This document shows positions 46 through 34,611 of a stretch of 64,000 bases of DNA, in pieces; the first letter of the stretch is position 1; each line of letters opens with the position of its first letter. The translations under genes and the position numbers were made by a program. The notes beneath the pieces were generated by a model. It searched no databases. It was not told where the DNA came from and was given only the letters and a program-made list of their open reading frames with translations. Source of the DNA: Rhodocyclaceae bacterium (GTDB taxonomy: Bacteria > Pseudomonadota > Gammaproteobacteria > Burkholderiales > Rhodocyclaceae); assembly GCA_016718525.1 (NCBI GenBank), contig JADKDD010000002.1, positions 639,047 through 703,046 of the forward strand. The letters run 5' to 3'.

Positions 46-534
46 ATGGACTTTTTTTTCAATGCAATCGCCGTGCCAAAACTCGGCAAAGACGCAATTT
101 TAGTCAGTAGCGAGAGTCGAGTTCACATAGACAGACAACTTAACCAGATACTTAGACGCAACAACGTGCCAACAAAAGCTCCGAGTGATGGGGTTGATTT
201 TGAGCATCAATGCGCATTAATGTTGGAGCAAAACGGTTGGTCGGTATCAACAACAAAAGCGTCCGGTGACCAAGGAGCCGACATAGTGGCGAGGATGGAC
301 AGCCTTTCGGTGGTTTTGCAATGCAAGTTATATTCAAAACCCGTTGGAAACGCTGCAGTTCAGGAAGCGTTTGCAGCTAAGTCCCATTACGGTACAAGGT
401 TTGCCGGGGTGGTCACCAAATCGAGTTATACAAAATCTGCAATGACGCTGGCGGCTTCCACTGAAGTCCTGTTGCTTCATTTCGAGGATTTGCCAAACCT
501 TCAAGCGATGTTGAGACCTATTGCGCGCAATTGA
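46..534 (+). CDS. Mrr-type restriction endonuclease domain protein (Mrr_cat-like)
   Basis: 162 aa. The GDQGADIVA...VVLQCK block matches the D-(D/E)xK core of Mrr/PF04471-type nucleases. No methylase or specificity partner is visible; the gene lies at the window edge. Confidence 0.6.
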   Translation: MDFFFNAIAVPKLGKDAILVSSESRVHIDRQLNQILRRNNVPTKAPSDGVDFEHQCALMLEQNGWSVSTTKASGDQGADIVARMDSLSVVLQCKLYSKPVGNAAVQEAFAAKSHYGTRFAGVVTKSSYTKSAMTLAASTEVLLLHFEDLPNLQAMLRPIARN

Positions 535-852
535 CTTGTGACACAGCCGACGTTTCTTCGGAAGTGTCAACCACCATACTGTGAGAACTATCTCAAACAT
601 CACATCACCAATGCGCTACAAGGGCATCTAATGGCTCGCTGGCATCCGAACAGGGCTATTCCTTGGCTATCCCTCTACAAGAGAGACTGAAGCGGCCTGC
701 GGTCATCCTGATGTCCCGGCAGTCAAATTACAATCAGCGCTACCGTAGCCGCTACATGAGATGCAAGCAGGTTGAACTAGCCGTTCCTCCTACTATGTTC
801 CTACCAATAGAAAAGCGGATTCCGGTAAATTCACTGGAACCCGCTTGAATAC

Positions 853-929
853 TGGTGGTGATGAGTGGACTTGAACCACCGACCCCCGGATTATGAATCC
901 GATGCTCTAACCGGCTGAGCTACATCACC
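853..929 (-). tRNA. tRNA-Met (anticodon CAU), elongator type
   Basis: The reverse complement GGTGATGTAGCTCAGCCGGTTAGAGCATCGGATTCATAATCCGGGGGTCGGTGGTTCAAGTCCACTCATCACCACCA folds as a cloverleaf. Acceptor is GGTGATG/CATCACC, D stem GCTC/GAGC, anticodon loop TTCATAA, T arm GGTGG/CCACT, with encoded CCA. It lacks the initiator features (C1:A72 mismatch, 3 G-C pairs in the anticodon stem). Ile2 (lysidine) identity is not fully excluded. Confidence 0.9.
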
Positions 930-9933: not shown

Positions 9934-11223
9934 TTACTTCTCCAGAATCGCGACTACGCCTTGGCCGCCGGCAGCACAAATTGAAATCAGGCCACGACCG
10001 CTACCTTTTTGATTCAGCATTTTTGCCAGTGTGGCGACAATGCGTCCGCCGGTTGCGGCAAAGGGATGGCCGGCGGCAAGCGAGCTGCCGTTGATATTGA
10101 GTTTGCTCAGATCAATCGCGCCGAGCGCTTTGTCCAAACCCAACTTTTCTTTGCAATAGGCTTCGTCCTGCCAGGCTTTCAAGGTGCACAGCACTTGCGC
10201 GGCAAAGGCTTCGTGAATTTCGTAAAAATCAAAATCCTGCAGACTGATCCCGGCGCGTGCCAGCATGCGCGGCACGGCATACGCCGGTGCCATCAACAGG
10301 CCTTCTTTTTTGTCAAAGAAATCCACCGCAGCGACTTCGCTGAAACTCAAATAGGCCAGCACTGGCAGGTTTTTCGCAGCTGCCCATTCCTCGCTGGCGA
10401 GCAACACCGCTGATGCGCCATCGGTCAGCGGGGTGGAATTGCCGGCAGTCAGCGTGCCTTGATTGGGTGCAACCTTCTTGTCGAATGCGGGTTTAAGCGA
10501 ACGCAGCTTTTCGATGGTCAAGTCGGCGCGCAGGTTGTTGTCGACGGCAACGCCTTTAAACGGCGTCATCAGGTCGGTGAAAAAACCGTCCTTGTACGCA
10601 CGCGCCAGATTGAGATGGCTCTTGAGCGCCAGCGCATCTTGATCTTCACGACTGATGTTCCATTCGCGCGCCATCAGTTCGGCGTGCTCGCCCATCGAAT
10701 ACCCGGTGCGTGGCTCGCCGTTGCGCGGCAGCGTAGGTGAGAACAACATACCTGGGCGCATCTTCGCCAAGCTGCCCAATCGCTGTCCAGTGGATTTTGC
10801 ACGCGATGTCTCGAGCAAAATCTTGCGCATCTTTTCATTCACACCGATCGGCGCATCGGACGTGGTGTCAACGCCGCCCGCCATGCCGCATTCGATATGC
10901 CCCAACGCGATCTTGTTGGCAACGATCATCGCTGCTTCAAGACCGGTACCACAGGCTTGCTGGATATCGAACGCTGTTGTTTGCGGCGACAGCGTGGTCG
11001 ACAATACCGACTCGCGCACCAGATTAAAGTCGCGCGAATGCTTCATCACCGCACCGCCGACAACATCGCCCAGGCGCTCGCCGTGCAGGTTGAAACGATC
11101 AACCAAGCCCTGCAATGTGGCGGTCAGCATCTCCTGATTCGACGCCGAGGAATAGACGCTGTTGGACCGTGCAAAGGGAATGCGGTTACCGCCAACAATG
11201 GCGACGCGACGGATAGTGTTCAT
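9934..11223 (-). CDS. Acetyl-CoA C-acyltransferase (thiolase)
   Basis: 429 aa. Thiolase active-site context (QQACGTGLEA; C-terminal NINGSSLAAGHPFAATGGR and CAAGGQG). Confidence 0.9.
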   Translation of the reverse strand: MNTIRRVAIVGGNRIPFARSNSVYSSASNQEMLTATLQGLVDRFNLHGERLGDVVGGAVMKHSRDFNLVRESVLSTTLSPQTTAFDIQQACGTGLEAAMIVANKIALGHIECGMAGGVDTTSDAPIGVNEKMRKILLETSRAKSTGQRLGSLAKMRPGMLFSPTLPRNGEPRTGYSMGEHAELMAREWNISREDQDALALKSHLNLARAYKDGFFTDLMTPFKGVAVDNNLRADLTIEKLRSLKPAFDKKVAPNQGTLTAGNSTPLTDGASAVLLASEEWAAAKNLPVLAYLSFSEVAAVDFFDKKEGLLMAPAYAVPRMLARAGISLQDFDFYEIHEAFAAQVLCTLKAWQDEAYCKEKLGLDKALGAIDLSKLNINGSSLAAGHPFAATGGRIVATLAKMLNQKGSGRGLISICAAGGQGVVAILEK

Positions 11224-11305
11224 GGTTTGCTCCTAAATAGAGTTACGCTTGATTATTAGATATGTCGCCGTGTCACCAGCACAAACTGACAAAACAGCGG
11301 GCGAC

Positions 11306-12193
11306 TTACGCGTAAGTGATCTGTCCGCGCAAGTGCGGCTTGTCGCCTTTTTGATTGCGCACTTCGAATGCGGTGGAAAGTTCGCTATGTGTTGCCCACA
11401 GTGAGGCTGTTGCCGGTAGAAACAACGGTGTTTTGAATTCGACGTTCACCGAAGCTTGTGCCACGGCATAAGGCGGCATCAGTTGCGCCAATGCCCGCGC
11501 TTTGGTCCACAAGCCGTGAGCGATGGCGGCGCGAAAACCGAACAGCTTGGCGGAAAGTGCCGACAAATGAATCGGATTCATGTCACCCGACACCTTGCCG
11601 TAACGACGACCAATGTCGCCTGGGGCGCGAATGTCGGCCTGGCGCGATAACGGCAAATCGGCATTGAGAGCGCTGACGAATTTGTTCCCGGCAGGGTTCT
11701 TGACACCAATTCGCAACAAGGTCTGTGTGGCATCCCAGACCAACTCATCGCCGCGCAGGATCTTCATTTCCATATTGAAGACCTGACCCTTTTCGTGTGC
11801 GATCAAATCCCCGGTCGCGACCTCAACCCGCAGGTCGTCACCCGCTTTCAGGATCGCGTGTTGAGCGATGCGATTGGCCAGATGCACGGTGCCCATCCCA
11901 GGCCACGGACAGTCTGGCGAGGCGAAGAATGCCATCATCAAAGGGAAAGTGAGCATTTGCGGATAAATGATTGGCACGCCCTGAGCTTCGGAGTAACCGC
12001 AGACTTTGGCATAGGCAGCAATATGCGCCGCATCCAATTTCACACTCGGGCGAACATAAGTTATTGACGGCAGCGCCGTGACCACACCGGGCTTTTTGCG
12101 ACTGGATTTAAGTGCGCCGAGGAACATTCCTGCCGGGCTCATCTCCTCGGTGACTTCGATGACTTTCATTGCGGGTTTCTTTGAGCTTGCCAT
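11306..12193 (-). CDS. MaoC-like double hot-dog (R)-specific enoyl-CoA hydratase/dehydratase
   Basis: Start reassigned to the ATG at 12193 (MASSKKPAMKV...). The longer ORF reaching 12541 overlaps the SDR gene and reads as Arg-rich nonsense. The C-terminal half carries the MaoC signature (SGDMNPIHL...AIAHGLW). Confidence 0.75.
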   Translation of the reverse strand: MASSKKPAMKVIEVTEEMSPAGMFLGALKSSRKKPGVVTALPSITYVRPSVKLDAAHIAAYAKVCGYSEAQGVPIIYPQMLTFPLMMAFFASPDCPWPGMGTVHLANRIAQHAILKAGDDLRVEVATGDLIAHEKGQVFNMEMKILRGDELVWDATQTLLRIGVKNPAGNKFVSALNADLPLSRQADIRAPGDIGRRYGKVSGDMNPIHLSALSAKLFGFRAAIAHGLWTKARALAQLMPPYAVAQASVNVEFKTPLFLPATASLWATHSELSTAFEVRNQKGDKPHLRGQITYA

Positions 12194-12204
12194 GGTATTT
12201 ATCC

Positions 12205-13614
12205 TCAAGCGCCGATCAAACTTTGGCCGCAAACGCGAACCACGTTGCCGGTGAGGCCGCTTGATGCGGGATTGGCAAACCAGACAATGGCTTCGGCCAC
12301 ATCCACCGGCAGGCCGCCTTGGCTCATGGAGTTCATCCGCCGCCCGGCTTCGCGCATGGCAAACGGAATCGCTGCGGTCATTTGCGTTTCTATGAAACCC
12401 GGTGCAACGGCATTGATCGTCACGCCATGCTTGGCAAACACCGGCGCGGTGCTTTGCACCATGCCGATGACGCCGGCTTTGGACAGTGCGTAGTTGGTCT
12501 GGCCCATATTGCCGGCGATGCCGGAGATGGACGAAACGCAAACAATGCGCGCGCCGGACTTGAGCACGCCCGATTCAACCAACGCGTCATTGATACGTTC
12601 CTGGGTCGACAGGTTCACGTTCATCACCATCTGCCAGAAACGCTCCTTCATGTTGGCAATCGTTTTGTCGCGCGTGATGCCGGCGTTATGCACGATCACA
12701 TCCCAGCCGCCATCGGCTTTCGCCGCGTCCACCAGTTTCTGTGGTGCGTCTGCTGCGCCGATGTCGAGTTCAATCGCCGTCGCGCCGAGTTTGGCCGCAA
12801 TCTCGTTCAAACCCGGTTGCGCCTGCGGCACATCGAGACAAATCACCGTTGCGCCTTCCCGCACCATCACCTCCGCAATTGAGGCGCCGATACCGCGAGA
12901 AGCACCGGTGACCAGCACTTTCTTGCCAGCCAGTGGCTTGTTCCAGTCCGACGGCGTACCGCCGGCACCAACTGGCAATCCAACGCGAATAACCTGTGCC
13001 GAAACATAGGTCGAGCGTGGCGAGAGCAGGAAGCGAACAGTGGATTCGAGCTGATCTTCCGCGCCTTCAGCCACGTAAACCAATTGCACTGCAATTGCGC
13101 GTTTCAATTCCTTGGCCAAGGATCGCGTCAGGCCTTCCAGTGCGCGCTGAATCGTCGCCTGGCGTGGATTCGCACATTTCTCCGGTGGTCGTCCGAAAAT
13201 AATTACCCGGCCGCACGGCAAGACCGAACGCGCAGCATCGTGGAAAAATTGATACAGCGCATCGGACTGCGTGCTGTCGGTCAATCCAGTGGCGTCAAAA
13301 ACAAGTGCCTTGACCTTCTCGCCTGGTTGGTCATCCACTCCCCAACGTCCGCTCATCAATCCGGCTTGATTTGCCAGCGGCAACCATTGCGGCAAATGCC
13401 GGGGCGCAACGGTTTGTACGCCGATCGATTTGAAGATTTTCGCCAATGTCGGCAACAACGGTGCGTCGCTGCCGCCACCGATCAGTAACGAGCCTTTGAT
13501 CACCGGCTGGCCTTCCTTATAACGATCAAGCACGATGGGTTTGGGCAAACCGAGCGCATCAGCCAACTTGGCACCAACGGCGGAGTTAGCAAAATTGAGA
13601 TAGCTATCGTTCAT
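12205..13614 (-). CDS. Long SDR-family 3-oxoacyl/3-hydroxyacyl reductase (about 450 aa, extra N-terminal domain)
   Basis: The C-terminal half has TGASRGIG, NAG and YxxxK (YALSKAG) SDR motifs. The N-terminal roughly 200 aa matches the long 3-ketoacyl reductase type found in beta-oxidation clusters. Confidence 0.8.
   Translation of the reverse strand: MNDSYLNFANSAVGAKLADALGLPKPIVLDRYKEGQPVIKGSLLIGGGSDAPLLPTLAKIFKSIGVQTVAPRHLPQWLPLANQAGLMSGRWGVDDQPGEKVKALVFDATGLTDSTQSDALYQFFHDAARSVLPCGRVIIFGRPPEKCANPRQATIQRALEGLTRSLAKELKRAIAVQLVYVAEGAEDQLESTVRFLLSPRSTYVSAQVIRVGLPVGAGGTPSDWNKPLAGKKVLVTGASRGIGASIAEVMVREGATVICLDVPQAQPGLNEIAAKLGATAIELDIGAADAPQKLVDAAKADGGWDVIVHNAGITRDKTIANMKERFWQMVMNVNLSTQERINDALVESGVLKSGARIVCVSSISGIAGNMGQTNYALSKAGVIGMVQSTAPVFAKHGVTINAVAPGFIETQMTAAIPFAMREAGRRMNSMSQGGLPVDVAEAIVWFANPASSGLTGNVVRVCGQSLIGA
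12948..12975 (+). repeat. Copy F of the bipartite motif (CCGACGGCGTACCGCCGGCACCAACTGG)
   Basis: Lies inside the SDR gene, antisense to the coding strand. 24 of 28 positions are identical to copy E. Confidence 0.5.
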
Positions 13615-26671: not shown

Positions 26672-26744
26672 TCGTGTTGCGTTGTCGTCAGCCTGATTGG
26701 CTATGGCGCTTACATCAATTTTCGTGGCGTTTCAGCACAACCGT

Positions 26745-27095
26745 TTAAGTTGTCCTGGTCGCCTTGGCCTTCACCACCCGGGGCTTAGCCGGAGCTTTGG
26801 CAATCACTTTGGTGGCGGCTTTGGGAGTTGGCTTGGCCGTGGCACTCGGCTTCGGTGCAACCGCTTTAGGGGCCGCCTTCGGTGCCGCTTTAGGGGCTGT
26901 CTTGGGGACTGCCTTGACTGCCACTTTTTTGGTTCTGGATTTCTCCGGAACCTGTTTGCTAGCCAGCCTTGTTGCAGCTTTCTTTCGAGACTTTTCGACC
27001 AGCCCCTCCAACTTCTTCTGCAGCTTCTCAATCTTCACGGCAGCCTTGTTGGCAACTTTTTCAATCTTGGCTTTAACGTTTTCAACGGTAGTCAT
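26745..27095 (-). CDS. Histone H1-like Lys/Ala/Pro-repeat protein
   Basis: 116 aa. Helical N-terminus, then a KAVPKTAPKAAPKAAPKAVAPKPSATAKPTPKAATK low-complexity tail, as in AlgP/BpH1/PhaF-tail type proteins. Confidence 0.6.
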   Translation of the reverse strand: MTTVENVKAKIEKVANKAAVKIEKLQKKLEGLVEKSRKKAATRLASKQVPEKSRTKKVAVKAVPKTAPKAAPKAAPKAVAPKPSATAKPTPKAATKVIAKAPAKPRVVKAKATRTT

Positions 27096-27358
27096 GGTCG
27101 ATCCTAGGTAGTGGATAACGATTGGGTAAAAAGCGTCAGGTGTTATAAGGCTACATCATGACCTAAAACGACGAGTTAATGTGGCTCAAACTAACGACAG
27201 CTATTGGCCCGTCGCTGCGCTCGATTCCTTGTTCATCGCCGCTTGGCAAACCGACTGTTTTGGTTATGCAAGAAGACGGCGCAGCATCGTCGATTGACGC
27301 AGTCTTGAATGATAGTTCTCCGCTTGACAAGCAGGTGGATTAAGCAGACAAGTGTTCC

Positions 27359-27808
27359 ATGAGATATTGGATGAAAGTTTTGCTCTTGGCGACTACTGTG
27401 ATCATCGTTTTAGGCACAGGGATAGCCGTACTTTCCGGATTGATCGGGGAGACGTCACGCGGTAAAACGCTGGCGCAAGCATTCGGAATTCCGCGACCGG
27501 CCGTCATTGCACATCGCGGCGCGTCCTATCTGGCCCCGGAGGAAACCCGGCCGGCGTTTTTAATGGCCCGGGAGCTTGGCGCCGACTATCTTGAGTTCGA
27601 CATCCAGCGCACAAAAGACGGCGTACTGATTGCCTTGCACGACGATGATCTCTCGCGCACCACCAATGTTGCCGAGATTTTCCCCGGCCGGGAGAAAGAC
27701 ACAATTGATACCTTTAGCTTTGCGGAATTGGCAGTGATGCGGTCCGGATTGGAAAAGTGCACTACTGGCTTTCACCAAGGCTGCATGAAACTGATGTTCC
27801 CTGCATGA
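27359..27808 (+). pseudogene. Truncated glycerophosphodiester phosphodiesterase (GDPD) gene, N-terminal part only
   Basis: TM anchor plus GDPD catalytic N-half (VIAHRGASYLAPEETRPAF...EFDIQRTKDGVLIALHDDDLSRTTNV). The ORF stops at 149 aa, where homologues continue for at least 100 more. I recognised no continuation in any frame. Confidence 0.6.
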
Positions 27809-28265
27809 CCACAGGACAAGATGTCCTGTTTTTGGCTCCGACTCGGCCAACTTATTCCGCTCCCCGGACAACATCTGTCTGCTGTCGCACATAAATAAGG
27901 TTCCAAGGCAATCGACCCGCAGATTCGTGCCGGAGACGCTGCAGCCCGGGCTGACCTGGTCATCAGATCCAATATCACTATCCTGTTTTTGGCTGCTTTC
28001 AACATGAGATTTCTTAACAGTATCGAAGGCTCCGTCATCGTTGTATCAACCGCTATTTGTGTGTGCTGGCATACATACAAGCCAGCTAGCGCGGCTTAGG
28101 CTGAATTCCTATCGGACAAATCCTTTTGCCTCGCCATCCCACTGTCTGCCCATGGCGATTCAATGATTCCTGACAGGTCAAATACGTTGATGAGTTCGAC
28201 TCAGGTAGCAGTTACCCGTTTGCACAAGCAGGAATGAAAAAGTTTCCGGCACCAGCACAGCCGCA

Positions 28266-29441
28266 TTGTCCCGAACAGAGTGTCACAACGTGAACAGCAC
28301 ATTCAAGACGATTTCGGAATCCGACATTCTTGGCGCCAGTATTCTGATTGTGGACGATCAGGAATCGAACATTCGGCTGCTTGGTCACATGTTGCGTAAT
28401 GCCGGTTACACATCGATTACCACCACGACCAAGCCGCGAGAAGTTTTTGCGCTACACCTGCAACATCGGTTTGACTTGATTCTGCTGGATATCCAGATGG
28501 ACGGAATGGATGGGTTTCAGGTGATGGACGGGCTTAAAAAAATCGAAAAGGACGATTACCTCCCAGTGATTGTCATCACTTCACAGCCCGAATACAGGCT
28601 GCGTGCGTTACATCTCGGCGCCAAGGATTTCATCAGCACACCATTTGAACGTGCCGAGGTTTTGGCTCGCGCCCATAACATGCTGGAAGTGCGTCTGCTG
28701 CACGAGGAATCCAAACGCCAGCGAACGTCACTGGCACAAAAGGTCATTGAGGTCGAAACCAGCAATCAAGTCATCAGCCGGCAGCGGGACGAGGTCAAAC
28801 GTCTATATGACGATATCTTGGCCGAGCAACAACGCTCGATGAAATTAAGCTTGCAGCCCGGCGCCATGGTCGGCGTGGAAAACGAGGAACGCCTTGCAAC
28901 CGGTTGGTATCGGAGCCTGAGGTTGCGCCACCCCTGGCTACAACTCAATCTACTCACGGCCTTCGTCGCCGCTGCCGTGGTAGGCATGTTCCAGGGTACC
29001 ATCGACCGGATGCTGATTCTGACCATGTTCCTCCCGGTACTGGCCGGCCAATCAGGCAACACCGGTAGTCAGGCACTGGCCATTACCTTGCGTGGAATGG
29101 CCCTGGGCGATTTGCAATCGGGCAAGGAAACCGCGCTGATAAGGAAGGAAGCGTTGCTGGGTTTGCTCAACGGTGGTCTGGTCGGGATGGTGGCGGCCGC
29201 AGGCATGTATTTTGTTGCCAGTTCCCAGCACTTGTCCGGCACGCTGATGCTAAGCCTCATCGTGTTATTGGCCATGATTGGCAGTTGCATCATCAGCGGT
29301 ATTTGCGGTGCCTTCGTGCCATTGTTGCTGAAGCGACTCGGTGCCGATCCGGTGACCGCGTCCAGTATTTTTCTGACCACCGCCACAGACGTGGTGAGCA
29401 TGGGAATGTTGCTCGGACTGGCAGCGATTCTGGTGAAGTAG
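28266..29441 (+). CDS. Response-regulator receiver domain fused to MgtE-type divalent-cation channel transmembrane domain
   Basis: Residues about 24-140 form a complete REC domain (DD pocket, LLDIQMDGMDG acceptor Asp, VITSQ, KDFISTPF). A coiled-coil linker follows. The C-terminal roughly 180 aa match the MgtE TM domain (FLPVLAGQSGNTGSQALAITLRGMALGD; DPVTASSIFLTTATDVVSMG). Start is uncertain: TTG at 28266 or GTG at 28290. Confidence 0.8.
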   Translation: MSRTECHNVNSTFKTISESDILGASILIVDDQESNIRLLGHMLRNAGYTSITTTTKPREVFALHLQHRFDLILLDIQMDGMDGFQVMDGLKKIEKDDYLPVIVITSQPEYRLRALHLGAKDFISTPFERAEVLARAHNMLEVRLLHEESKRQRTSLAQKVIEVETSNQVISRQRDEVKRLYDDILAEQQRSMKLSLQPGAMVGVENEERLATGWYRSLRLRHPWLQLNLLTAFVAAAVVGMFQGTIDRMLILTMFLPVLAGQSGNTGSQALAITLRGMALGDLQSGKETALIRKEALLGLLNGGLVGMVAAAGMYFVASSQHLSGTLMLSLIVLLAMIGSCIISGICGAFVPLLLKRLGADPVTASSIFLTTATDVVSMGMLLGLAAILVK

Positions 29442-29751
29442 ACGTGACAAACTTCGAATGCCTGAAGCTGCTGACCTTGTCAAACAGTAGTCAGCCAAAA
29501 CTGCCTTATAGGGAAGCGGTGCATCGGAAATTTGCGACTTCAGCGCCGGACTGCTCACAACCACAAATTATCAGGGTTGGCTATTCGCGGCTGACGCCGG
29601 TGTACGGCCCGCACGAATAAGGGTTTCTATAAACTGTCATGGCATGGCCCAGGAAGTAAGCTCGCGGACGCTTCATGCTAGACCTATCTTGACGATTTTT
29701 AATGCATTGTTGTTACTCGTCTTGTTGAAACCAAATGGCTAGAATAAAAAA

Positions 29752-31050: not shown

Positions 31051-31110
31051 GAAGTGATTTGAGCACGTCGAAATGGTGCACCGGCGTGCTCAAATCACTT
31101 CGCCTCTTTT
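31051..31110 (+). terminator. 17-bp perfect inverted repeat plus T-run, terminator between convergent genes
   Basis: GAAGTGATTTGAGCACG (31051-31067), a 17-nt loop, then CGTGCTCAAATCACTTC (31085-31101), followed by GCCTCTTTT. The right arm overlaps the stop codon (31095-31097) of the minus-strand permease gene. Confidence 0.6.
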
Positions 31111-31865
31111 GATCCCGCAATGAGGCCAAGCATTGCCGTCAAGCCAAGTACACAGACCACTGTTGGCCCGGGCGGTAAATCGGTGACACCGGAGGCAGCC
31201 AGGCCAACGGCATAGGCGATGATGCCTACGATATAGCCACGATACAAGCCCCGTTTGCCATTCAAGCGACGGCTGGCTAATGCCGGCGCAATCAGGCTGG
31301 CAAAAACCAAAAACACACCGACCAGTTGTACCGACAGCGTCACCGTCAGGGCGAACAATAAATAAAAACCAGTATCCCCAAGTCGCGGTCCGACCCTGAA
31401 CCAAGTCATCAGCACAATTACATAAATGACCGATGGCAGCAGCAATTGTCCCCAGCTGACCCAGAGAATTTGCCCTGCCAGCAGATCGCGCAGATGTTCG
31501 CCGCCATGCGGGTTGTGCGCCAACAACAAAATGCCGACGCAGGCGGAGACAGCAAACAAGAGGCCGATCAGGGCCTCCTGAATTTCCGGCCAGCGTCGTC
31601 CCGACCAGGTCAGCAACAGCGCGCCACAGACGGCGGCCGCAACAGCCGTCGCCTGGGTTGCCAGATCAATGCCACCGTCCGCGTCACCCCAACCAGCCAG
31701 GTGCGCCGCCATCACTCCCAAGCCTGCGACCTGAGCAATTGCGAGGTCGATAAAGATGATGCCGCGACGAAGCACTTCGCGCCCCAAAGGTACGTGCGTC
31801 GCGAGCACCAGCAAACCGGCACAAAACGGCACCAGCAGCAAACCAAAATCAATCGCCTCGATCAT
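31095..31865 (-). CDS. Metal ABC transporter permease (ABC-3 / ZnuB-TroC family)
   Basis: 256 aa. The HVPLGREVLRRGIIFIDLAIAQVAGLG motif is typical of ZnuB-like permeases. Confidence 0.85.
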   Translation of the reverse strand: MIEAIDFGLLLVPFCAGLLVLATHVPLGREVLRRGIIFIDLAIAQVAGLGVMAAHLAGWGDADGGIDLATQATAVAAAVCGALLLTWSGRRWPEIQEALIGLLFAVSACVGILLLAHNPHGGEHLRDLLAGQILWVSWGQLLLPSVIYVIVLMTWFRVGPRLGDTGFYLLFALTVTLSVQLVGVFLVFASLIAPALASRRLNGKRGLYRGYIVGIIAYAVGLAASGVTDLPPGPTVVCVLGLTAMLGLIAGSKEAK

Positions 31866-31867
31866 GG

Positions 31868-32764
31868 TTATGGTTGTACCAATCGGGATATGGTCAGATC
31901 GAAAGTGCTGAACAAGTCTGTCGCCTTTTCATCGCCGCCAACGGTAAACGGCAATACCGCAATCGGCACATTGGCTTCACGTGAGAACCATTCCGCAGGT
32001 CGCGGCGAATTGTAGGCAGCACGAATCACCATCTTTACGCCACGGCCGGAAGTCTTCGCAACGACGTCGCTCAGATATGCCGCCGAAGGCTCGACCCCGG
32101 GCTTGGGCTCGAGCGTCGCGATTTGTTTCATCCCGAGCCAATTCAACAGGTAAGTGAATGACGCGTGTTGGACCACGACCAGTGCACCGCGTAGTGGCGC
32201 TGCAGTTTTCTCCCAACGCGCAATCGCCACCGTCCAGCGCTCTGCAAACCGCGCCAGGTTCGCCTGATATGCGGCAGCGTTGGCAGTATCGATCTCGCCC
32301 AAACGTTTACTCAAGGCTTGGCCTACGCGCAGGATGTTTCGCGGGTCAGTCTGGATGTGCGGGTTGCCGGCGGCATGCACGTCACCATCAGCCCGATCAA
32401 GGCGCGTCGGCACTTCCAGCATCGTCACGTACTGCGCCGCCTCAAAATTGCCTGGCTGCCCCGGCTGTATCCTCGGGTTGCCTGATTCGCGCAACACAAC
32501 CGGCAACCAGCCCACCTCAAGTTCGGCTCCGGTTGATATCAATAGATCTGCGTTGCGCGCACGCGCTACCAGCGAGGGGCGGGCCTCAATACGATGCGGA
32601 TCCTGCATCCCTGTGGTCGCCGACGACACCTTGACTTTGTCGCCGCCGATTTCCTGAGCCAGTGCCGCCCATTCCGGTACCGTGGCGAGAATGTTGAGAG
32701 CGGCATTGGCTGGCACGGCTGTCGCCGTAAGCACCATTGCCGCGAGGGTGAAGAGTATTTTCAT
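31868..32764 (-). CDS. Metal ABC transporter substrate-binding protein (cluster A-I, ZnuA/TroA-like)
   Basis: Start set at the ATG at 32764 (MKILFTLAAMVLTATAVPANA). Metal-site motif GDVHAAGNPHIQTDP. No long His-rich loop. Confidence 0.85.
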   Translation of the reverse strand: MKILFTLAAMVLTATAVPANAALNILATVPEWAALAQEIGGDKVKVSSATTGMQDPHRIEARPSLVARARNADLLISTGAELEVGWLPVVLRESGNPRIQPGQPGNFEAAQYVTMLEVPTRLDRADGDVHAAGNPHIQTDPRNILRVGQALSKRLGEIDTANAAAYQANLARFAERWTVAIARWEKTAAPLRGALVVVQHASFTYLLNWLGMKQIATLEPKPGVEPSAAYLSDVVAKTSGRGVKMVIRAAYNSPRPAEWFSREANVPIAVLPFTVGGDEKATDLFSTFDLTISRLVQP

Positions 32765-32783
32765 TTTTTCTCCCGGGTTCTGG

Positions 32784-34193
32784 TTAGTATTTGTGCGCGC
32801 CGTGCGCGCCGAGATTGACGATGTAGTGCAGCCAGACTTGATTGTCCGTGATGTCGTTTCGGGCTTTATCGCGGGCAAACTGAACACGGAAACGCGAAAA
32901 CTCGCTAGGTGACCAATCGAACATCACTGTGTTGCGGGACGGGTTGTAAGGATTTAGTCCCGGAATATTGCCTGCAGCAACATCAACGTTATCAATATGT
33001 CCGTAGTCAAGCCGGTCATAGCGATAGCCAACGCGCCAGGCGGGCAGGAACTGATAGACGCTTTGCAGGTACCAACCCGATTGCGTGGAATCGTAGCTGT
33101 TTGTTGTCCCGGCCAAATAGTTGAGGTCGCCATTTTCATGACGCCGCATGTATTCACCCTGCAGTTTCAAACTGGCCCCGCTGCTGTCCTCCGGTTTCCA
33201 TTTGTACACAAAGTCGCCGATCAGCATTTTGGTGCGCGCCGAAATCGCGTAGCTGGCGATATCAGGATCATCAACCCGGTCTCGCGGTTTGGTAGTCAGG
33301 TAGGAGGCCCCTGCACGCCAACTCTGCGTATTGCCGATGTCGCCGCCAACATTGGCGAAGAACGCGGCCGTTTCTACGCCATTTTTGCCATTGTTGGTCG
33401 AGGGGAAACTCATCCCGTTGATCGCCTCAGCTCCCAGCGAAAAATATATGTCACTTGGCGCCAGCCATTTGAGCTGCAGGCCATCGTCGATCAGTTGCCC
33501 GCCAAAAAATGCCTGGTAGGGAAGCGGTGCATCTGAAAAATCCCAAGTGTGCGCATGCTGACTATTGAGGTAACCGACCCCGGACAGGAAACGCCCGGCA
33601 GTCAGGCCAAATCCGTTCGGCAACGAACTTGAACGAATGAAAGCCTCTTCGATTTCCGGGCTCTCGCCATTTTCAGGCGGCAGGGCCAGCGTCAGCCGGC
33701 CTGACCACATAGGGTCAATGCTGGCCTCCAGCGACAGCTCTGATTCACCAATATTGAAACCACGGGATGGCGGACCAATTTCACCCAACGATGGCGCGAA
33801 ACCATCAATTCGATAGGGCGTCTTGTTGGGGTCATTCTGCAGATGGGTGTACATCCCCGACAGCACCAATGAAATTGCCGGATTGAAGGCATTGGCCGCT
33901 GGCGGTGGCGCGGGCTGTTTAACTGGCGGAACAGCCGCAATCTGCTCTGCGCGACTAGCGGTCGTCTCGGCCTTTTGCGCCGACACCTCGGCTTTTTGGG
34001 CAGTCGCTTCAGCCGCATTCAGGCGCCTTTCAAGCGCCGCAATTTGCTGCTCATAGTTGCTTTTCATTTGCGCAATTTCAGCGCGCAACAACTTCAAATC
34101 AGCGTCAGAGGCTGCCGCCGCGACGCCAGGTACGACAAACGGAGAGGCAAGGGCAATAGCTGCCGCGAGCCCCGAAATTGTGGGGTTCTGCAT
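32784..34193 (-). CDS. Outer-membrane porin-like protein with N-terminal coiled coil
   Basis: Start set at the ATG at 34193 (MQNPTISGLAAAIALASP...). Heptad-like segment LKLLRAEIAQMKSNYEQQIAALERRLNAAE, then a beta-barrel-like C-terminal region ending ...GAHGAHKY. Confidence 0.55.
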   Translation of the reverse strand: MQNPTISGLAAAIALASPFVVPGVAAAASDADLKLLRAEIAQMKSNYEQQIAALERRLNAAEATAQKAEVSAQKAETTASRAEQIAAVPPVKQPAPPPAANAFNPAISLVLSGMYTHLQNDPNKTPYRIDGFAPSLGEIGPPSRGFNIGESELSLEASIDPMWSGRLTLALPPENGESPEIEEAFIRSSSLPNGFGLTAGRFLSGVGYLNSQHAHTWDFSDAPLPYQAFFGGQLIDDGLQLKWLAPSDIYFSLGAEAINGMSFPSTNNGKNGVETAAFFANVGGDIGNTQSWRAGASYLTTKPRDRVDDPDIASYAISARTKMLIGDFVYKWKPEDSSGASLKLQGEYMRRHENGDLNYLAGTTNSYDSTQSGWYLQSVYQFLPAWRVGYRYDRLDYGHIDNVDVAAGNIPGLNPYNPSRNTVMFDWSPSEFSRFRVQFARDKARNDITDNQVWLHYIVNLGAHGAHKY

Positions 34194-34269
34194 AGTGTGT
34201 TCTCCAAAGCAATGATGTAAGCCACCCGGCGCAATGTGCGGGGTGGACAACAGAAACGTTTGCTGTGCT

Positions 34270-34611
34270 TTAGAAGACGCTAGGAGGACCGCGGGGGAGC
34301 GCACGCCACTGTGGAAAGGCATGCAAAAAACCAGTTGAAACACCCAACGCTATCACCAGCATGAACGCTGCTGGTGCCGGTCCGGCAAATGCGGCGAGTG
34401 GCACCGCATCGACGCCGGCAAAGGCCAGGCAGGTAGAACAAACGTGAGACAGTTGCTCGGGCGCGCCGTGCTCTACGTCCTGCTGCTGAACAACAGTGTC
34501 GGTCTTTGCAGTCCCAAGGTGGCCAAGCAAATGCCAATACGCCGCTTGCTGTGAATACAGCAGCAACAGCGCAAGCGCGATGACGAACGGGAATGAGCGA
34601 TGAAGCTTCAT
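34270..34611 (-). CDS. Small membrane/secreted His/Cys protein, DUF2946-like
   Basis: 113 aa. N-terminal TM segment, HLLGH, and a HVCSTCLAFAG motif resembling the CxxC-L-x-x-AG of DUF2946 proteins found in metal-uptake loci. Confidence 0.4.
   Translation of the reverse strand: MKLHRSFPFVIALALLLLYSQQAAYWHLLGHLGTAKTDTVVQQQDVEHGAPEQLSHVCSTCLAFAGVDAVPLAAFAGPAPAAFMLVIALGVSTGFLHAFPQWRALPRGPPSVF

What the first reader, a model, noticed from the sequence alone, without database searches (positions are those of the whole stretch)
28266..29441. Receiver domain fused directly to an MgtE channel pore, replacing the Mg-sensing N/CBS domains
Canonical MgtE has an N-domain, a CBS pair and a 5-TM pore, and its cytosolic domains gate the pore in response to Mg2+. 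In this 391-aa ORF the complete pore domain is present, including the GNxGSQ-type motif and the conserved TM5 Asp in TTATDVV. It is preceded only by an intact CheY-like receiver (all phospho-acceptor pocket residues present) and a coiled-coil linker of about 60 aa. This suggests a divalent-cation channel gated by phosphorylation rather than by ligand-binding CBS domains. No histidine kinase is encoded anywhere in the window, so it is an orphan receiver. The upstream neighbour is a decayed gene, which suggests local rearrangement.
Basis: partly seen in the sequence, partly recalled or inferred. Interest (0 to 1): 0.68.

Follow-up and report, generated by a model that had tools for sequence, protein, structure and literature searches.

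The report
Response regulator fused to MgtE pore
This intact gene joins a two-component phospho-receiver domain directly to the pore of an MgtE magnesium channel, and it belongs to a widespread but unstudied family that probably lets a phosphorelay open or close a cation channel directly.

Summary
An intact gene (most likely 28290-29441, + strand, 383 aa) encodes a CheY-like receiver, one long helix and a complete five-helix MgtE pore. It has no MgtE_N or CBS domain. It is not a chimera: an independent contig is colinear at 99.7%, and at least 155 protein clusters share the architecture, including one in the cultured Ferriphaselus amnicola.

- The receiver is not fully canonical. The conserved lysine (CheY K109) is Thr here and in 24 of 157 relatives.
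- "Orphan" holds only locally. Relatives lie directly downstream of CHASE3/PAS hybrid kinases, beside sibling REC-HD-GYP and REC-GGDEF genes.
- The likely start is the GTG at 28290, not the TTG at 28266.

New finding: the pore's single acidic residue alternates between TM5 (T. thermophilus D432 position) and TM2 (G325 position). It switched at least 12 times, and no sequence is acidic at both sites (0 of 157; 31.8 expected).

All three segments are under purifying selection (dN/dS about 0.1). The best reading is a phosphorylation-gated divalent-cation channel, which is inferred and untested. I found no publication on it. I rate it a new variant of known kinds, of moderately high interest.

The parts
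28290..29441 (+). REC-MgtE gene with its most likely GTG start (383 aa plus stop).
   Evidence: ORF list. The exact 383-aa product is NCBI MBP7080503.1, 'response regulator [Rhodocyclaceae bacterium]', and the 391-aa form is absent from the collection. Codons were checked.
28341..28670 (+). CheY-like receiver (REC) domain, aa 26-135 in 391-aa numbering.
   Evidence: Pfam PF00072, 84.3 bits. The AF2 model shows a (beta-alpha)5 fold. Foldseek matches PleD, CheY and PhoP receivers with target-normalised TM-scores of about 0.88.
28488..28490 (+). Predicted phospho-acceptor Asp75 (CheY D57 equivalent). The acidic pair D30/D31 is at 28353-28358 and T105 (CheY T87) at 28578-28580.
   Evidence: Alignment to PleD. 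These residues are invariant or nearly so in 157 family members. Codons checked.
28638..28640 (+). Thr125 (codon ACA) at the position of the conserved receiver Lys (CheY K109).
   Evidence: PleD 'DFLTKP' aligns with window 'DFISTP'. The family has K 131, T 24, A 1, I 1 at this position. It covaries with A88->S and P61->D/Q/E.
28650..28850 (+). Single long predicted helix (aa 129-195): receiver alpha5, signalling linker and plug-helix segment.
   Evidence: AF2 helix 121-187 in 383-aa numbering. The spacer is 85 aa in 119 of 121 relatives, with no indels. 3.5-residue periodicity peaks over aa 154-195.
28809..28925 (+). Segment homologous to the MgtE plug helix and connecting region (aa 182-220, 'DDILAEQQRSMKLSLQPGAMVGVENEER...'). 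The fusion junction lies at its start.
   Evidence: TIGR00400 match begins at profile position 245. The profile alignment to 2yvx places Tt E255/E258/D259 opposite K/L/Q. A sibling REC-coiled-coil-REC protein stays similar only up to 'LYDKVV'.
28926..29438 (+). MgtE-type five-helix transmembrane pore domain (aa 221-391).
   Evidence: Pfam PF01769, full-length match, 94.1 bits. Alignment to 4u9n and 2yvx. Foldseek match to 4u9l_B with target-normalised TM-score 0.92 and rmsd 1.8 A.
29046..29048 (+). TM2 Gly261 (codon GGC; T. thermophilus G325 position), the alternative site of the pore carboxylate. It is Asp in 58 of 157 relatives.
   Evidence: Alignment numbering derived. Covariation and exclusivity with position 375.
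29055..29072 (+). TM2 GNTGSQ motif (aa 264-269; T. thermophilus G328-Q333).
   Evidence: N, T, G and Q are at least 97% conserved in the family.
29388..29390 (+). TM5 Asp375 (codon GAC; T. thermophilus D432, the selectivity-filter carboxylate).
   Evidence: Alignment. In the first 120 relatives this position is N 60, D 48, E 10, S 2. In the extended 157-sequence set it is acidic in 86.
27359..27808 (+). Truncated glycerophosphodiester phosphodiesterase gene (5' fragment). It is context only, not part of the system.
   Evidence: Pfam GDPD profile positions 1-71 of 244. The same fragment is present in the independent contig L088.

Best explanation
The gene encodes a membrane-bound response regulator whose output domain is an MgtE-type divalent-cation channel pore.

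Shown:
- A receiver domain, one long helix and a complete five-helix MgtE pore lie in a single reading frame under purifying selection.
- The N and CBS Mg2+/ATP-sensing domains are absent.
- The aligned positions of three acidic plug-helix residues (T. thermophilus E255, E258, D259) are K, L and Q here.
- In relatives the gene lies in operon-like clusters directly behind CHASE3/multi-PAS hybrid histidine kinases. A single-domain receiver or a REC-Hpt protein often sits between them, and REC-HD-GYP or REC-GGDEF genes carrying a 60-64% identical receiver module lie beside it.

Inferred:
- Like MgtE, the protein is a homodimer with the pore formed by TM2 and TM5 of both subunits.
- Phosphorylation of Asp75 changes the packing of the two receivers. 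This change travels along the length-invariant alpha5-linker helix pair, by rotation, register shift or scissoring as in WspR- and DgcR-type receiver-stalk regulators.
- The helix pair ends in the plug helices, which move and open or close the cytoplasmic side of the pore. Cation flux (most likely Mg2+, possibly another divalent cation) would thus be set by a phosphorelay instead of by cytosolic Mg2+ or ATP, in parallel with c-di-GMP turnover by the sibling regulators.
- The pore keeps exactly one carboxylate per subunit at the M1 site, either on TM5 (as in this window copy) or on TM2. That argues that ion binding in the pore is under selection.

The window copy is a special case. It has been separated from its kinase neighbourhood, and it belongs to a subclade with Thr in place of the receiver Lys. 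Its partner kinase, if it has one, must be encoded elsewhere in the genome.
For: - Domain content and boundaries.
- Fold: AF2 mean pLDDT 83, with receiver, a 67-residue helix and five TM helices. Foldseek matches MgtE (4u9l TMt 0.92; 5x9h over 212 columns), PleD and CheY.
- Not a chimera: L088 is colinear at 99.73% over 2990 bp without gaps. The exact protein occurs in two NCBI MAG records and several other contigs. At least 155 clusters at 67-99% identity share the architecture.
- Purifying selection: dN/dS is 0.10-0.13 overall. By segment it is 0.08-0.16 in the receiver, 0.07-0.13 in the linker and 0.10-0.18 in the pore.
- Phosphorelay context: seven of the eight relatives' loci examined hold a kinase. 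The eighth (L089) shows a single-domain receiver and an unannotated gene cut by the contig end. F. amnicola has kinase, 9-bp gap, REC-MgtE, 24-bp gap, REC-HD-GYP.
- Shared receiver module with sibling regulators.
- Invariant phospho-acceptor pocket D30, D31, D75, T105 and switch residue F122 in 157 sequences.
- Linker length fixed at 85 aa in 119 of 121.
- Pore: 65 positions are at least 97% conserved. One-carboxylate rule: 0 of 157 have acids at both TM2-261 and TM5-375, against 31.8 expected. There were at least 12-13 independent switches.
- Literature: D432 is the sole conserved pore acid and D432N is inactive. The M1 site uses the carbonyls of P321 and L324, next to G325 (PMC4241985). The plug helices close the pore, and G325 is a gating kink (PMC8104411).
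Against: - There is no functional data for any member, so transport, ion identity, dimerisation and phosphorylation are all untested.
- The window copy has Thr at the conserved receiver Lys, a residue normally needed for the phosphorylation-induced switch. It has no kinase or Hpt gene within 64 kb.
- 13 of 157 members have no pore carboxylate at either site. By analogy with D432N these might not conduct Mg2+.
- The G325-equivalent glycine, important for gating in T. thermophilus MgtE, is Asp in 58 members and Ser in 12.
- The G435-equivalent is Ser in this family and in its closest CBS-type relatives, so gating mechanics may differ from the model channel.
- The AF2 model is a monomer (pTM 0.50), and the coiled-coil pairing is inferred.
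- The direction of gating (phosphorylation opens or closes) cannot be deduced.
Confidence: 0.55

Rival explanations
1. In this window's subclade the receiver is a phosphorylation-independent pseudo-receiver. With Thr at the Lys position and without a local kinase, it would serve only as a constitutive dimerisation or scaffold module. The channel would then be constitutively set or regulated by something else, such as membrane potential, a binding partner or the ion itself.
For: K109->Thr in the window and 24 of 157 relatives, together with coupled changes next to the active site (A88->S, P61->D/Q/E). There is no kinase or Hpt gene in 64 kb. The gene was moved without its neighbours.
Against: The acidic pocket, the acceptor Asp, T87 and the F122 switch residue remain invariant in the Thr subclade. 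Other Thr-variant genes (P0009, P0010, P0036, P0003) still lie beside REC-Hpt proteins, hybrid kinases or single-domain receivers. Receiver dN/dS is as low as in the pore.
Confidence: 0.2
2. The information flow is reversed, or the protein is a membrane-anchored phosphate sink. The MgtE-like domain would act as an anchor or ion sensor, and the receiver would drain or buffer phosphoryl groups from the shared hybrid kinase. That would tune the sibling REC-HD-GYP and REC-GGDEF regulators rather than gate ion flux.
For: Sibling regulators carry a 60-64% identical receiver module and probably compete for the same kinase. Single-domain receivers and REC-Hpt proteins in the same clusters indicate branched phosphorelays. 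8% of members lack any pore carboxylate.
Against: A mere anchor would not need 65 near-invariant pore positions, an intact P-x3-G...GNTGSQ motif, or a compensated one-carboxylate rule maintained through at least 12 switches. The fixed-length helix joined in register to the plug helix points to mechanical coupling to the pore.
Confidence: 0.15
3. The ORF is an artefact: an assembly chimera of a response-regulator gene and an mgtE gene, or a decaying pseudogene left by local rearrangement.
For: The upstream neighbour is a truncated gene, and the gene lacks its family's usual neighbours.
Against: An independent assembly is colinear at 99.73% across the junction. The exact protein is present in two NCBI MAG records and in Logan and ENA contigs. 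More than 155 homologous clusters have the same architecture and the same 85-aa spacer. The frame is intact and dN/dS is about 0.1.
Confidence: 0.01

Closest known systems
MgtE Mg2+ channel (Thermus thermophilus; PDB 2YVX, 2ZY9, 4U9L, 5X9H)
   Same: The five-helix TM domain is the same (TMt 0.92, rmsd 1.8 A). So are the TM2 P-x3-G...GNTGxQ motif, the TM5 Asp at the M1 site, the periplasmic acidic residue (Tt E311, window D247) and a plug-helix-homologous segment.
   Different: There is no N domain and no CBS pair. The plug-helix acids E255, E258 and D259 are K, L and Q. The TIGR00400 score is 96 against a cutoff of 233, so it is not an equivalog. The G435 equivalent is Ser. Within the family the D432 position varies (Asp, Asn, Glu or Ser) and an Asp can appear at the G325 position. 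No M-box riboswitch lies upstream.
Uncharacterised CBS-MgtE subfamily of about 410-415 aa, mainly from Burkholderiales MAGs (e.g. P0122, P0126, P0138)
   Same: These are the nearest pore relatives, at 50-67% identity over plug helix plus pore. They share 'GQSGNTGCQA' and 'TTATDV.S'.
   Different: They keep a CBS pair and a weak MgtE_N domain. The TM5 Asp is essentially fixed across the CBS-type pore relatives as a whole, both this subfamily and the canonical ~450-aa MgtEs (89 of about 97 aligned), and none has Asp at the TM2 G325 position.
Receiver-stalk-output response regulators (WspR, PleD and DgcR type REC-GGDEF proteins; RpfG type REC-HD-GYP proteins)
   Same: A receiver whose alpha5 continues into a long helix that carries the signal to the output domain. 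The best sequence matches of the receiver are PleD (E 1e-22) and DgcR-like proteins 6zxb/6zxc. WspR structures appear in the fold search. Sibling REC-GGDEF and REC-HD-GYP genes in the same clusters share the receiver module.
   Different: The output is a transmembrane ion-channel pore rather than a soluble enzyme. The helix merges with a channel plug helix. The window copy lacks the conserved Lys.

Membership tests
Response regulator receiver domain (CheY-like, PF00072) | Profile match above the curated threshold, and a (beta-alpha)5 fold | tested here: met
   84.3 bits against a 30.2 cutoff. AF2 secondary structure. Foldseek target-normalised TM-score about 0.88 to CheY and PhoP receivers.
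Response regulator receiver domain (CheY-like, PF00072) | Acidic pocket (D12, D13), phospho-acceptor Asp (D57) and Thr/Ser (T87) | tested here: met
   D30, D31, D75 and T105 align to PleD. They are invariant or nearly so in 157 relatives.
Response regulator receiver domain (CheY-like, PF00072) | Conserved Lys (K109) preceding the cis-Pro | tested here: not met
   Thr125-Pro126 ('DFISTP' against PleD 'DFLTKP'). Thr occurs in 24 of 157 relatives and Lys in 131.
Response regulator receiver domain (CheY-like, PF00072) | Phosphotransfer from a cognate histidine kinase or Hpt protein | not testable with these tools
   None is encoded in the window. Kinase or Hpt genes are adjacent in relatives. Biochemistry is required.
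MgtE Mg2+ channel (PF01769 pore; TIGR00400 full-length equivalog) | Complete five-helix MgtE transmembrane domain | tested here: met
   PF01769 positions 1-125 of 125, 94.1 bits. Target-normalised TM-score 0.92 to 4u9l.
MgtE Mg2+ channel (PF01769 pore; TIGR00400 full-length equivalog) | TM5 selectivity Asp (D432) and TM2 Pro/Gly-rich GNxGxQ motif | tested here: met
   D375, P257, G261, G264, N265 and Q269 align to Tt D432, P321, G325, G328, N329 and Q333. The Asp is not fixed in the wider REC family.
MgtE Mg2+ channel (PF01769 pore; TIGR00400 full-length equivalog) | Cytosolic N domain (PF03448) and CBS pair (PF00571) that sense Mg2+ and ATP | tested here: not met
   No hit at E<=1. The region is a receiver plus a single helix in the AF2 model.
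MgtE Mg2+ channel (PF01769 pore; TIGR00400 full-length equivalog) | Full-length equivalog score (TIGR00400 cutoff 232.75) | tested here: not met
   96.1 bits, matching only profile positions 245-447.
MgtE Mg2+ channel (PF01769 pore; TIGR00400 full-length equivalog) | Acidic plug-helix residues that bind regulatory Mg2+ (Tt E255, E258, D259). Their Mg2+-binding role is recalled from my own knowledge of the MgtE structures, not from a paper read here. | tested here: not met
   Aligned residues are K, L and Q in the window.
MgtE Mg2+ channel (PF01769 pore; TIGR00400 full-length equivalog) | Mg2+ transport activity and homodimeric pore | not testable with these tools
   Requires complementation, flux or structural experiments. 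Only a monomer model was possible.
Receiver-stalk (signalling-helix) response regulators, WspR/DgcR type | Receiver alpha5 continuous with a long helix of conserved length leading to the output | tested here: met
   AF2 helix 121-187. The 85-aa spacer is the same length in 119 of 121 relatives.
Receiver-stalk (signalling-helix) response regulators, WspR/DgcR type | Parallel dimeric coiled coil whose register or rotation changes on phosphorylation | tested here: inconclusive
   Heptad-like 3.5 periodicity appears only over about aa 154-195. No dimer model or phospho-state comparison was possible.

The most novel reading that the evidence does not exclude
REC-MgtE proteins are a class of phosphorelay-gated ion channels, the first response regulators whose direct output is cation flux across the membrane. 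They operate in parallel with c-di-GMP enzymes under the same stress-sensing hybrid kinase. Their selectivity filter exists in interchangeable states: carboxylate on TM5, carboxylate on TM2, or none. These states would give different ion selectivity or conductance and would interconvert by single G<->A transitions (GGC/GAC at codon 261, GAC/AAC at codon 375).
Probability: 0.35. Interest if true: 0.8.

Novelty: new variant of a known kind. Interest (0 to 1): 0.62.

Why it matters
Two-component outputs are almost always transcription, enzymes or protein-protein contacts. A receiver wired straight into a channel pore would show that phosphorelays can control ion flux on a millisecond-to-second scale without gene expression. 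It would also give a clean, modular system for studying how a helical linker transmits a phospho-signal into a membrane gate.

For the MgtE and SLC41 field, the family is a natural mutagenesis experiment on the selectivity filter. The 'sole conserved' pore Asp, whose D432N mutant is dead in the model channel, is Asn in about 44% of members. Most of these (58 of 69) have an Asp appearing on TM2 at a glycine thought to be a gating hinge.

The presence of the operon in a cultured iron oxidiser (Ferriphaselus amnicola, complete genome) makes all of this testable.

Tried and rejected
- **Cryptic N or CBS domain in the linker.** Rejected: no Pfam hit at E<=1, and the AF2 model shows a single helix.
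- **Assembly chimera or pseudogene.** Rejected.
- **Lys->Thr change marks copies that lost their kinase.** Rejected: Thr variants P0009, P0010, P0036 and P0003 still have REC-Hpt, hybrid-kinase or receiver neighbours.
- **Remnant of a kinase, Hpt protein or receiver in the 450-bp upstream spacer or elsewhere in the window.** None found by tblastn with 21 probes. The upstream fragment is an unrelated GDPD gene.
- **Alternative pore acid in the 13 members lacking both carboxylates.** None is enriched.
- **Mg2+ riboswitch upstream.** Rfam found only a tRNA in the whole window.
- **Family size from a junction-only query.** The search failed: the word index returned 4 hits and missed even the 99% identical P0001, so one search is uninformative. 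Counts of '8000' and '6752' hits are inflated by plain receiver or MgtE proteins and were not used as family size.
- **Technical failures.** A Pfam scan of the 150-sequence alignment exceeded the residue limit and was replaced by 10 representatives plus local phmmer. An DNA alignment was over its length limit and was replaced by blastn.
- **Literature.** Five searches for any description of a receiver-MgtE fusion found nothing. Galperin's 2006 response-regulator census is not held in the library, so prior mention in a census table cannot be excluded.
- **ORF-poor stretch at 43.4-45.3 kb.** It contains only small ordinary genes.
Full report
**1. The observation**

The ORF 28266-29441 (+, 391 aa from a TTG) is present. 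Pfam finds Response_reg at aa 26-135 (84.3 bits) and a full-length MgtE pore domain at aa 256-385 (94.1 bits). No CBS or MgtE_N match appears even at E<=1. The full-length MgtE model TIGR00400 matches only aa 182-390, equal to model positions 245-447 of 450. It scores 96 bits against a cutoff of 233. So the plug helix and pore are kept, while the N and CBS domains are absent.

Alignments to solved structures map GNTGSQ to T. thermophilus (Tt) G328-Q333 and D375 to Tt D432. The most likely start is the GTG at 28290. The resulting 383-aa protein is an exact match to NCBI MBP7080503.1. A 376-aa start call (MBK9522187.1) also exists, and the 391-aa form is in no database. Both NCBI records are named only 'response regulator'. 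The window comes from a Rhodocyclaceae MAG.

**2. One correction to the observation**

The receiver is not fully canonical. D30, D31, D75 (the acceptor), T105 and the switch residue F122 are present. However, the conserved Lys (CheY K109) is Thr125: PleD 'DFLTKP' aligns with 'DFISTP'. Among 157 family members this position is K in 131, T in 24, A in 1 and I in 1. It changed about five times on the tree.

**3. Not a chimera and not a pseudogene**

- An independent ENA contig (L088) is colinear with window 26688-29677 at 99.73% identity with no gaps. It includes the truncated upstream gene.
- The exact protein recurs in several assemblies.
- At least 155 protein clusters at 67-99% identity share the architecture, and almost all are 377 aa long.
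- Pairwise dN/dS against six relatives is 0.10-0.13 overall and similar in receiver, linker and pore.

**4. Anatomy**

The AF2 model has mean pLDDT 83. It gives a (beta-alpha)5 receiver whose alpha5 continues as one 67-residue helix (aa 121-187 in 383-aa numbering). A short loop and five TM helices follow.

- Foldseek matches the pore to the MgtE TM domain (4u9l, target-normalised TM-score 0.92, rmsd 1.8 A).
- It matches pore plus plug to full-length MgtE over 212 columns.
- It matches the receiver to PleD and CheY.
- WspR-type receiver-stalk proteins are also among the hits.

A profile alignment to full-length Tt MgtE places 'DDILAEQQRSMKLSLQPGAMVGV' opposite 'DDVLDVLEAEATEDIHKLGAV', the end of CBS2 and the plug helix. 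The acidic residues E255, E258 and D259 are K, L and Q here.

The receiver-to-TM1 spacer is 85 aa in 119 of 121 relatives, with no indels. It shows 3.5-residue periodicity over about aa 154-195. A sibling REC-coiled-coil-REC protein in locus L002 is similar up to '...LYDKVV', exactly where MgtE homology starts in the fusion. This pins the junction.

**5. Where the parts came from**

An exhaustive search with the plug-plus-pore segment, followed by domain scans, identifies the nearest pore relatives. They are an uncharacterised subfamily of about 410-415 aa (50-67% identity) with a CBS pair and a weak N domain. Canonical MgtEs of about 450 aa are at 40-49%.

Of 80 species-level genome loci retrieved, 74 are this CBS-type sister and only 6 are true receiver fusions. 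The six are two Rhodocyclales/Rhodocyclaceae MAGs, a Gallionella MAG, a Pseudomonadales MAG, and MAGs binned as Chitinophagaceae and Ignavibacteriaceae.

The receiver module, including its N-terminal 'SDIL' cap and the 'HNMLEVRLLH' alpha5 extension, is 54-64% identical to the receivers of neighbouring regulators in loci L002 and L003. These neighbours are REC-HD-GYP, REC-GGDEF and REC-coiled-coil-REC genes. In loci L001 and L004 the REC-HD-GYP receivers are only 35-38% identical. The fusion therefore looks like a cluster-resident receiver-stalk module grafted onto an MgtE pore at the plug helix.

**6. Genomic context**

Eight relatives' loci were examined. In seven, the gene lies in a two-component cluster that contains a kinase.

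| Locus | Arrangement |
|---|---|
| L001 | Multi-PAS kinase, REC-kinase-REC, receiver, then the gene |
| L002 | PAS hybrid kinase, then the gene, REC-x, REC-HD-GYP |
| L003 | CHASE3-PAS kinase, receiver, then the gene, REC-GGDEF |
| L004-L006 | REC-Hpt, then the gene, with a CHASE3 hybrid kinase and REC-HD-GYP on the opposite strand |
| L007 | Three kinases, REC-Hpt, then the gene |
| P0036 locus | REC-Hpt and a REC-HATPase protein adjacent |
| L089 | Receiver, then the gene; the gene upstream of the receiver is cut by the contig end and unannotated |
| L090 (F. amnicola AP018738.1) | 1594-aa CHASE3/multi-PAS hybrid kinase, 9-bp gap, the gene, 24-bp gap, REC-HD-GYP |

General-stress-type genes (BON, CsbD, DUF883, OmpA-like, Gly-zipper) recur around these clusters.

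The window differs. No HisKA, HATPase_c or Hpt domain is found in 64 kb. DNA similarity to all other relatives starts and stops at the gene borders. The upstream gene is a truncated, unrelated GDPD gene. The 'orphan' state is thus a local peculiarity of this copy. Whether a partner kinase is encoded elsewhere in the MAG could not be tested.

**7.

In CBS-type MgtEs the TM5 Asp is essentially fixed (89 of about 97 aligned). The literature calls it the sole conserved acidic pore residue. D432A and D432N abolish Mg2+ transport (PMC4241985).

Within the receiver-fused family it is not fixed. Across 157 sequences the TM2-261/TM5-375 pairs are:

| TM2-261 / TM5-375 | Count |
|---|---|
| G/D | 64 |
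| D/N | 58 |
| S/D | 12 |
| G/E | 10 |
| G/N | 7 |
| A/N | 3 |
| G/S | 2 |
| Y/N | 1 |

- No sequence is acidic at both sites (0, against 31.8 expected under independence), and 13 are acidic at neither.
- Position 261 is the column with the highest mutual information with 375 (0.74 bits).
- On a neighbour-joining tree built without these columns, parsimony needs at least 12 changes of the TM5 acid and at least 13 of the TM2 acid. This is repeated coordinated switching, not one inherited event. The tree is approximate, so these counts are rough.
- Position 261 aligns to Tt G325. It lies next to L324 and one turn from P321, whose carbonyls form part of the M1 ion site. It is also one of the glycines whose kink opens the pore, and G325A nearly abolishes complementation (PMC8104411).
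- In the window both sites are one G<->A transition from the alternative state: GGC to GAC at codon 261, and GAC to AAC at codon 375.

My reading is an inference: selection keeps exactly one carboxylate per subunit at the M1 site but tolerates two positions for it. This argues that the pore binds cations and is functional. Whether the two states differ in selectivity is unknown.

**8. Mechanism**

The best-supported model (confidence 0.55) is a homodimeric cation channel gated by receiver phosphorylation. The signal would pass through the fixed-length alpha5-linker helix pair into the plug helices. This replaces gating by cytosolic Mg2+ or ATP and makes cation flux a direct phosphorelay output, alongside c-di-GMP turnover by sibling regulators.

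- Shown: architecture, conservation, context and selection.
- Inferred: dimerisation, helix pairing, phosphorylation, ion identity and gating direction.

The rivals are:
- a phosphorylation-independent pseudo-receiver in the Thr subclade that includes this window copy (0.2);
- a membrane-anchored phosphate sink or reverse signalling (0.15);
- an artefact (0.01).

**9. Novelty**

Databases already hold the family under generic names ('response regulator', 'magnesium transporter MgtE'). The architecture itself can therefore be found by anyone browsing domain combinations. I found no paper that describes or tests it. A census paper that might list it was not available.

It fails full MgtE membership: no N or CBS domain, and a score below the equivalog cutoff. 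It also fails one canonical receiver criterion in this copy. I file it as a new variant of known kinds, namely a response regulator with a channel-pore output. The carboxylate toggle is an additional result that I did not find described.

Noticed in passing
window 29046-29048 and 29388-29390; family alignment of 157 sequences: The pore's single acidic residue alternates between TM5 (Tt D432 position) and TM2 (Tt G325 position) across the family. No sequence has both, 13 have neither, and there were at least 12 independent switches. Each site is one G<->A transition from the alternative state in the window's codons.
   Followed up: yes
L002:9181-10218: A 345-aa sibling protein has the same receiver and coiled-coil module (54% identity over 195 aa). 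It carries an insertion of about 30 aa after 'KEIEP' and ends in a second receiver instead of a pore. Its similarity stops exactly at the MgtE fusion junction.
   Followed up: partly
L011:8695-9066, 10025-11129, 11198-11575 (Gallionella MAG): Three tandem copies of the receiver module lie side by side at the DNA level (68% identity to the window's receiver). This indicates a cluster of paralogous regulators flanking the REC-MgtE gene.
   Followed up: partly
L090, L001, L002, L003, L007 flanks: Loci of the family repeatedly carry small general-stress or envelope genes (BON, CsbD, DUF883, DUF1328, Gly-zipper, OmpA-like, catalase). This hints that the phosphorelay responds to osmotic or envelope stress.
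   Followed up: no
window 28502 and 29101 versus L088: The only two differences inside the gene between the window and the independent contig are both nonsynonymous (D79E next to the acceptor loop, and A279D in the TM2-TM3 loop). Five of the eight mismatches overall cluster at 26693-26747, near the L088 contig end, and are probably assembly-end noise.
   Followed up: partly
window 27811-27837 and 27982-27995: A terminator-like hairpin sits right after the truncated GDPD ORF. The 13-base motif 'TCCTGTTTTTGGC' occurs twice in the 450-bp spacer upstream of the REC-MgtE gene and could be a scar of the rearrangement.
   Followed up: no
window 31095-34343 (- strand): A ZnuA-like binding protein and an ABC-3 permease have no adjacent ABC ATPase ORF. 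They are preceded by a 519-aa protein with no Pfam match whose sequence suggests, by eye, an outer-membrane protein. This metal-uptake locus lies 1.6 kb downstream of the channel gene.
   Followed up: no
window 11306-13614 (- strand): Two long ORFs in different frames overlap by 337 nt. One has a MaoC dehydratase domain at its C-terminus and the other an SDR domain. This could be a frameshifted or mis-started multifunctional hydratase/dehydrogenase gene.
   Followed up: no
window 26745-27095 (- strand): A 116-aa protein rich in Lys, Ala and Pro, resembling histone H1, lies between DUF3616 and the GDPD fragment.
   Followed up: no
window 46-929: An Mrr-type restriction endonuclease gene lies next to the only tRNA in the window (tRNA-Met, 853-929, - strand).
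   Followed up: no
whole window: Rfam finds no M-box or other Mg2+ riboswitch anywhere, so the usual RNA-level Mg2+ control of mgtE genes is absent here.
   Followed up: yes
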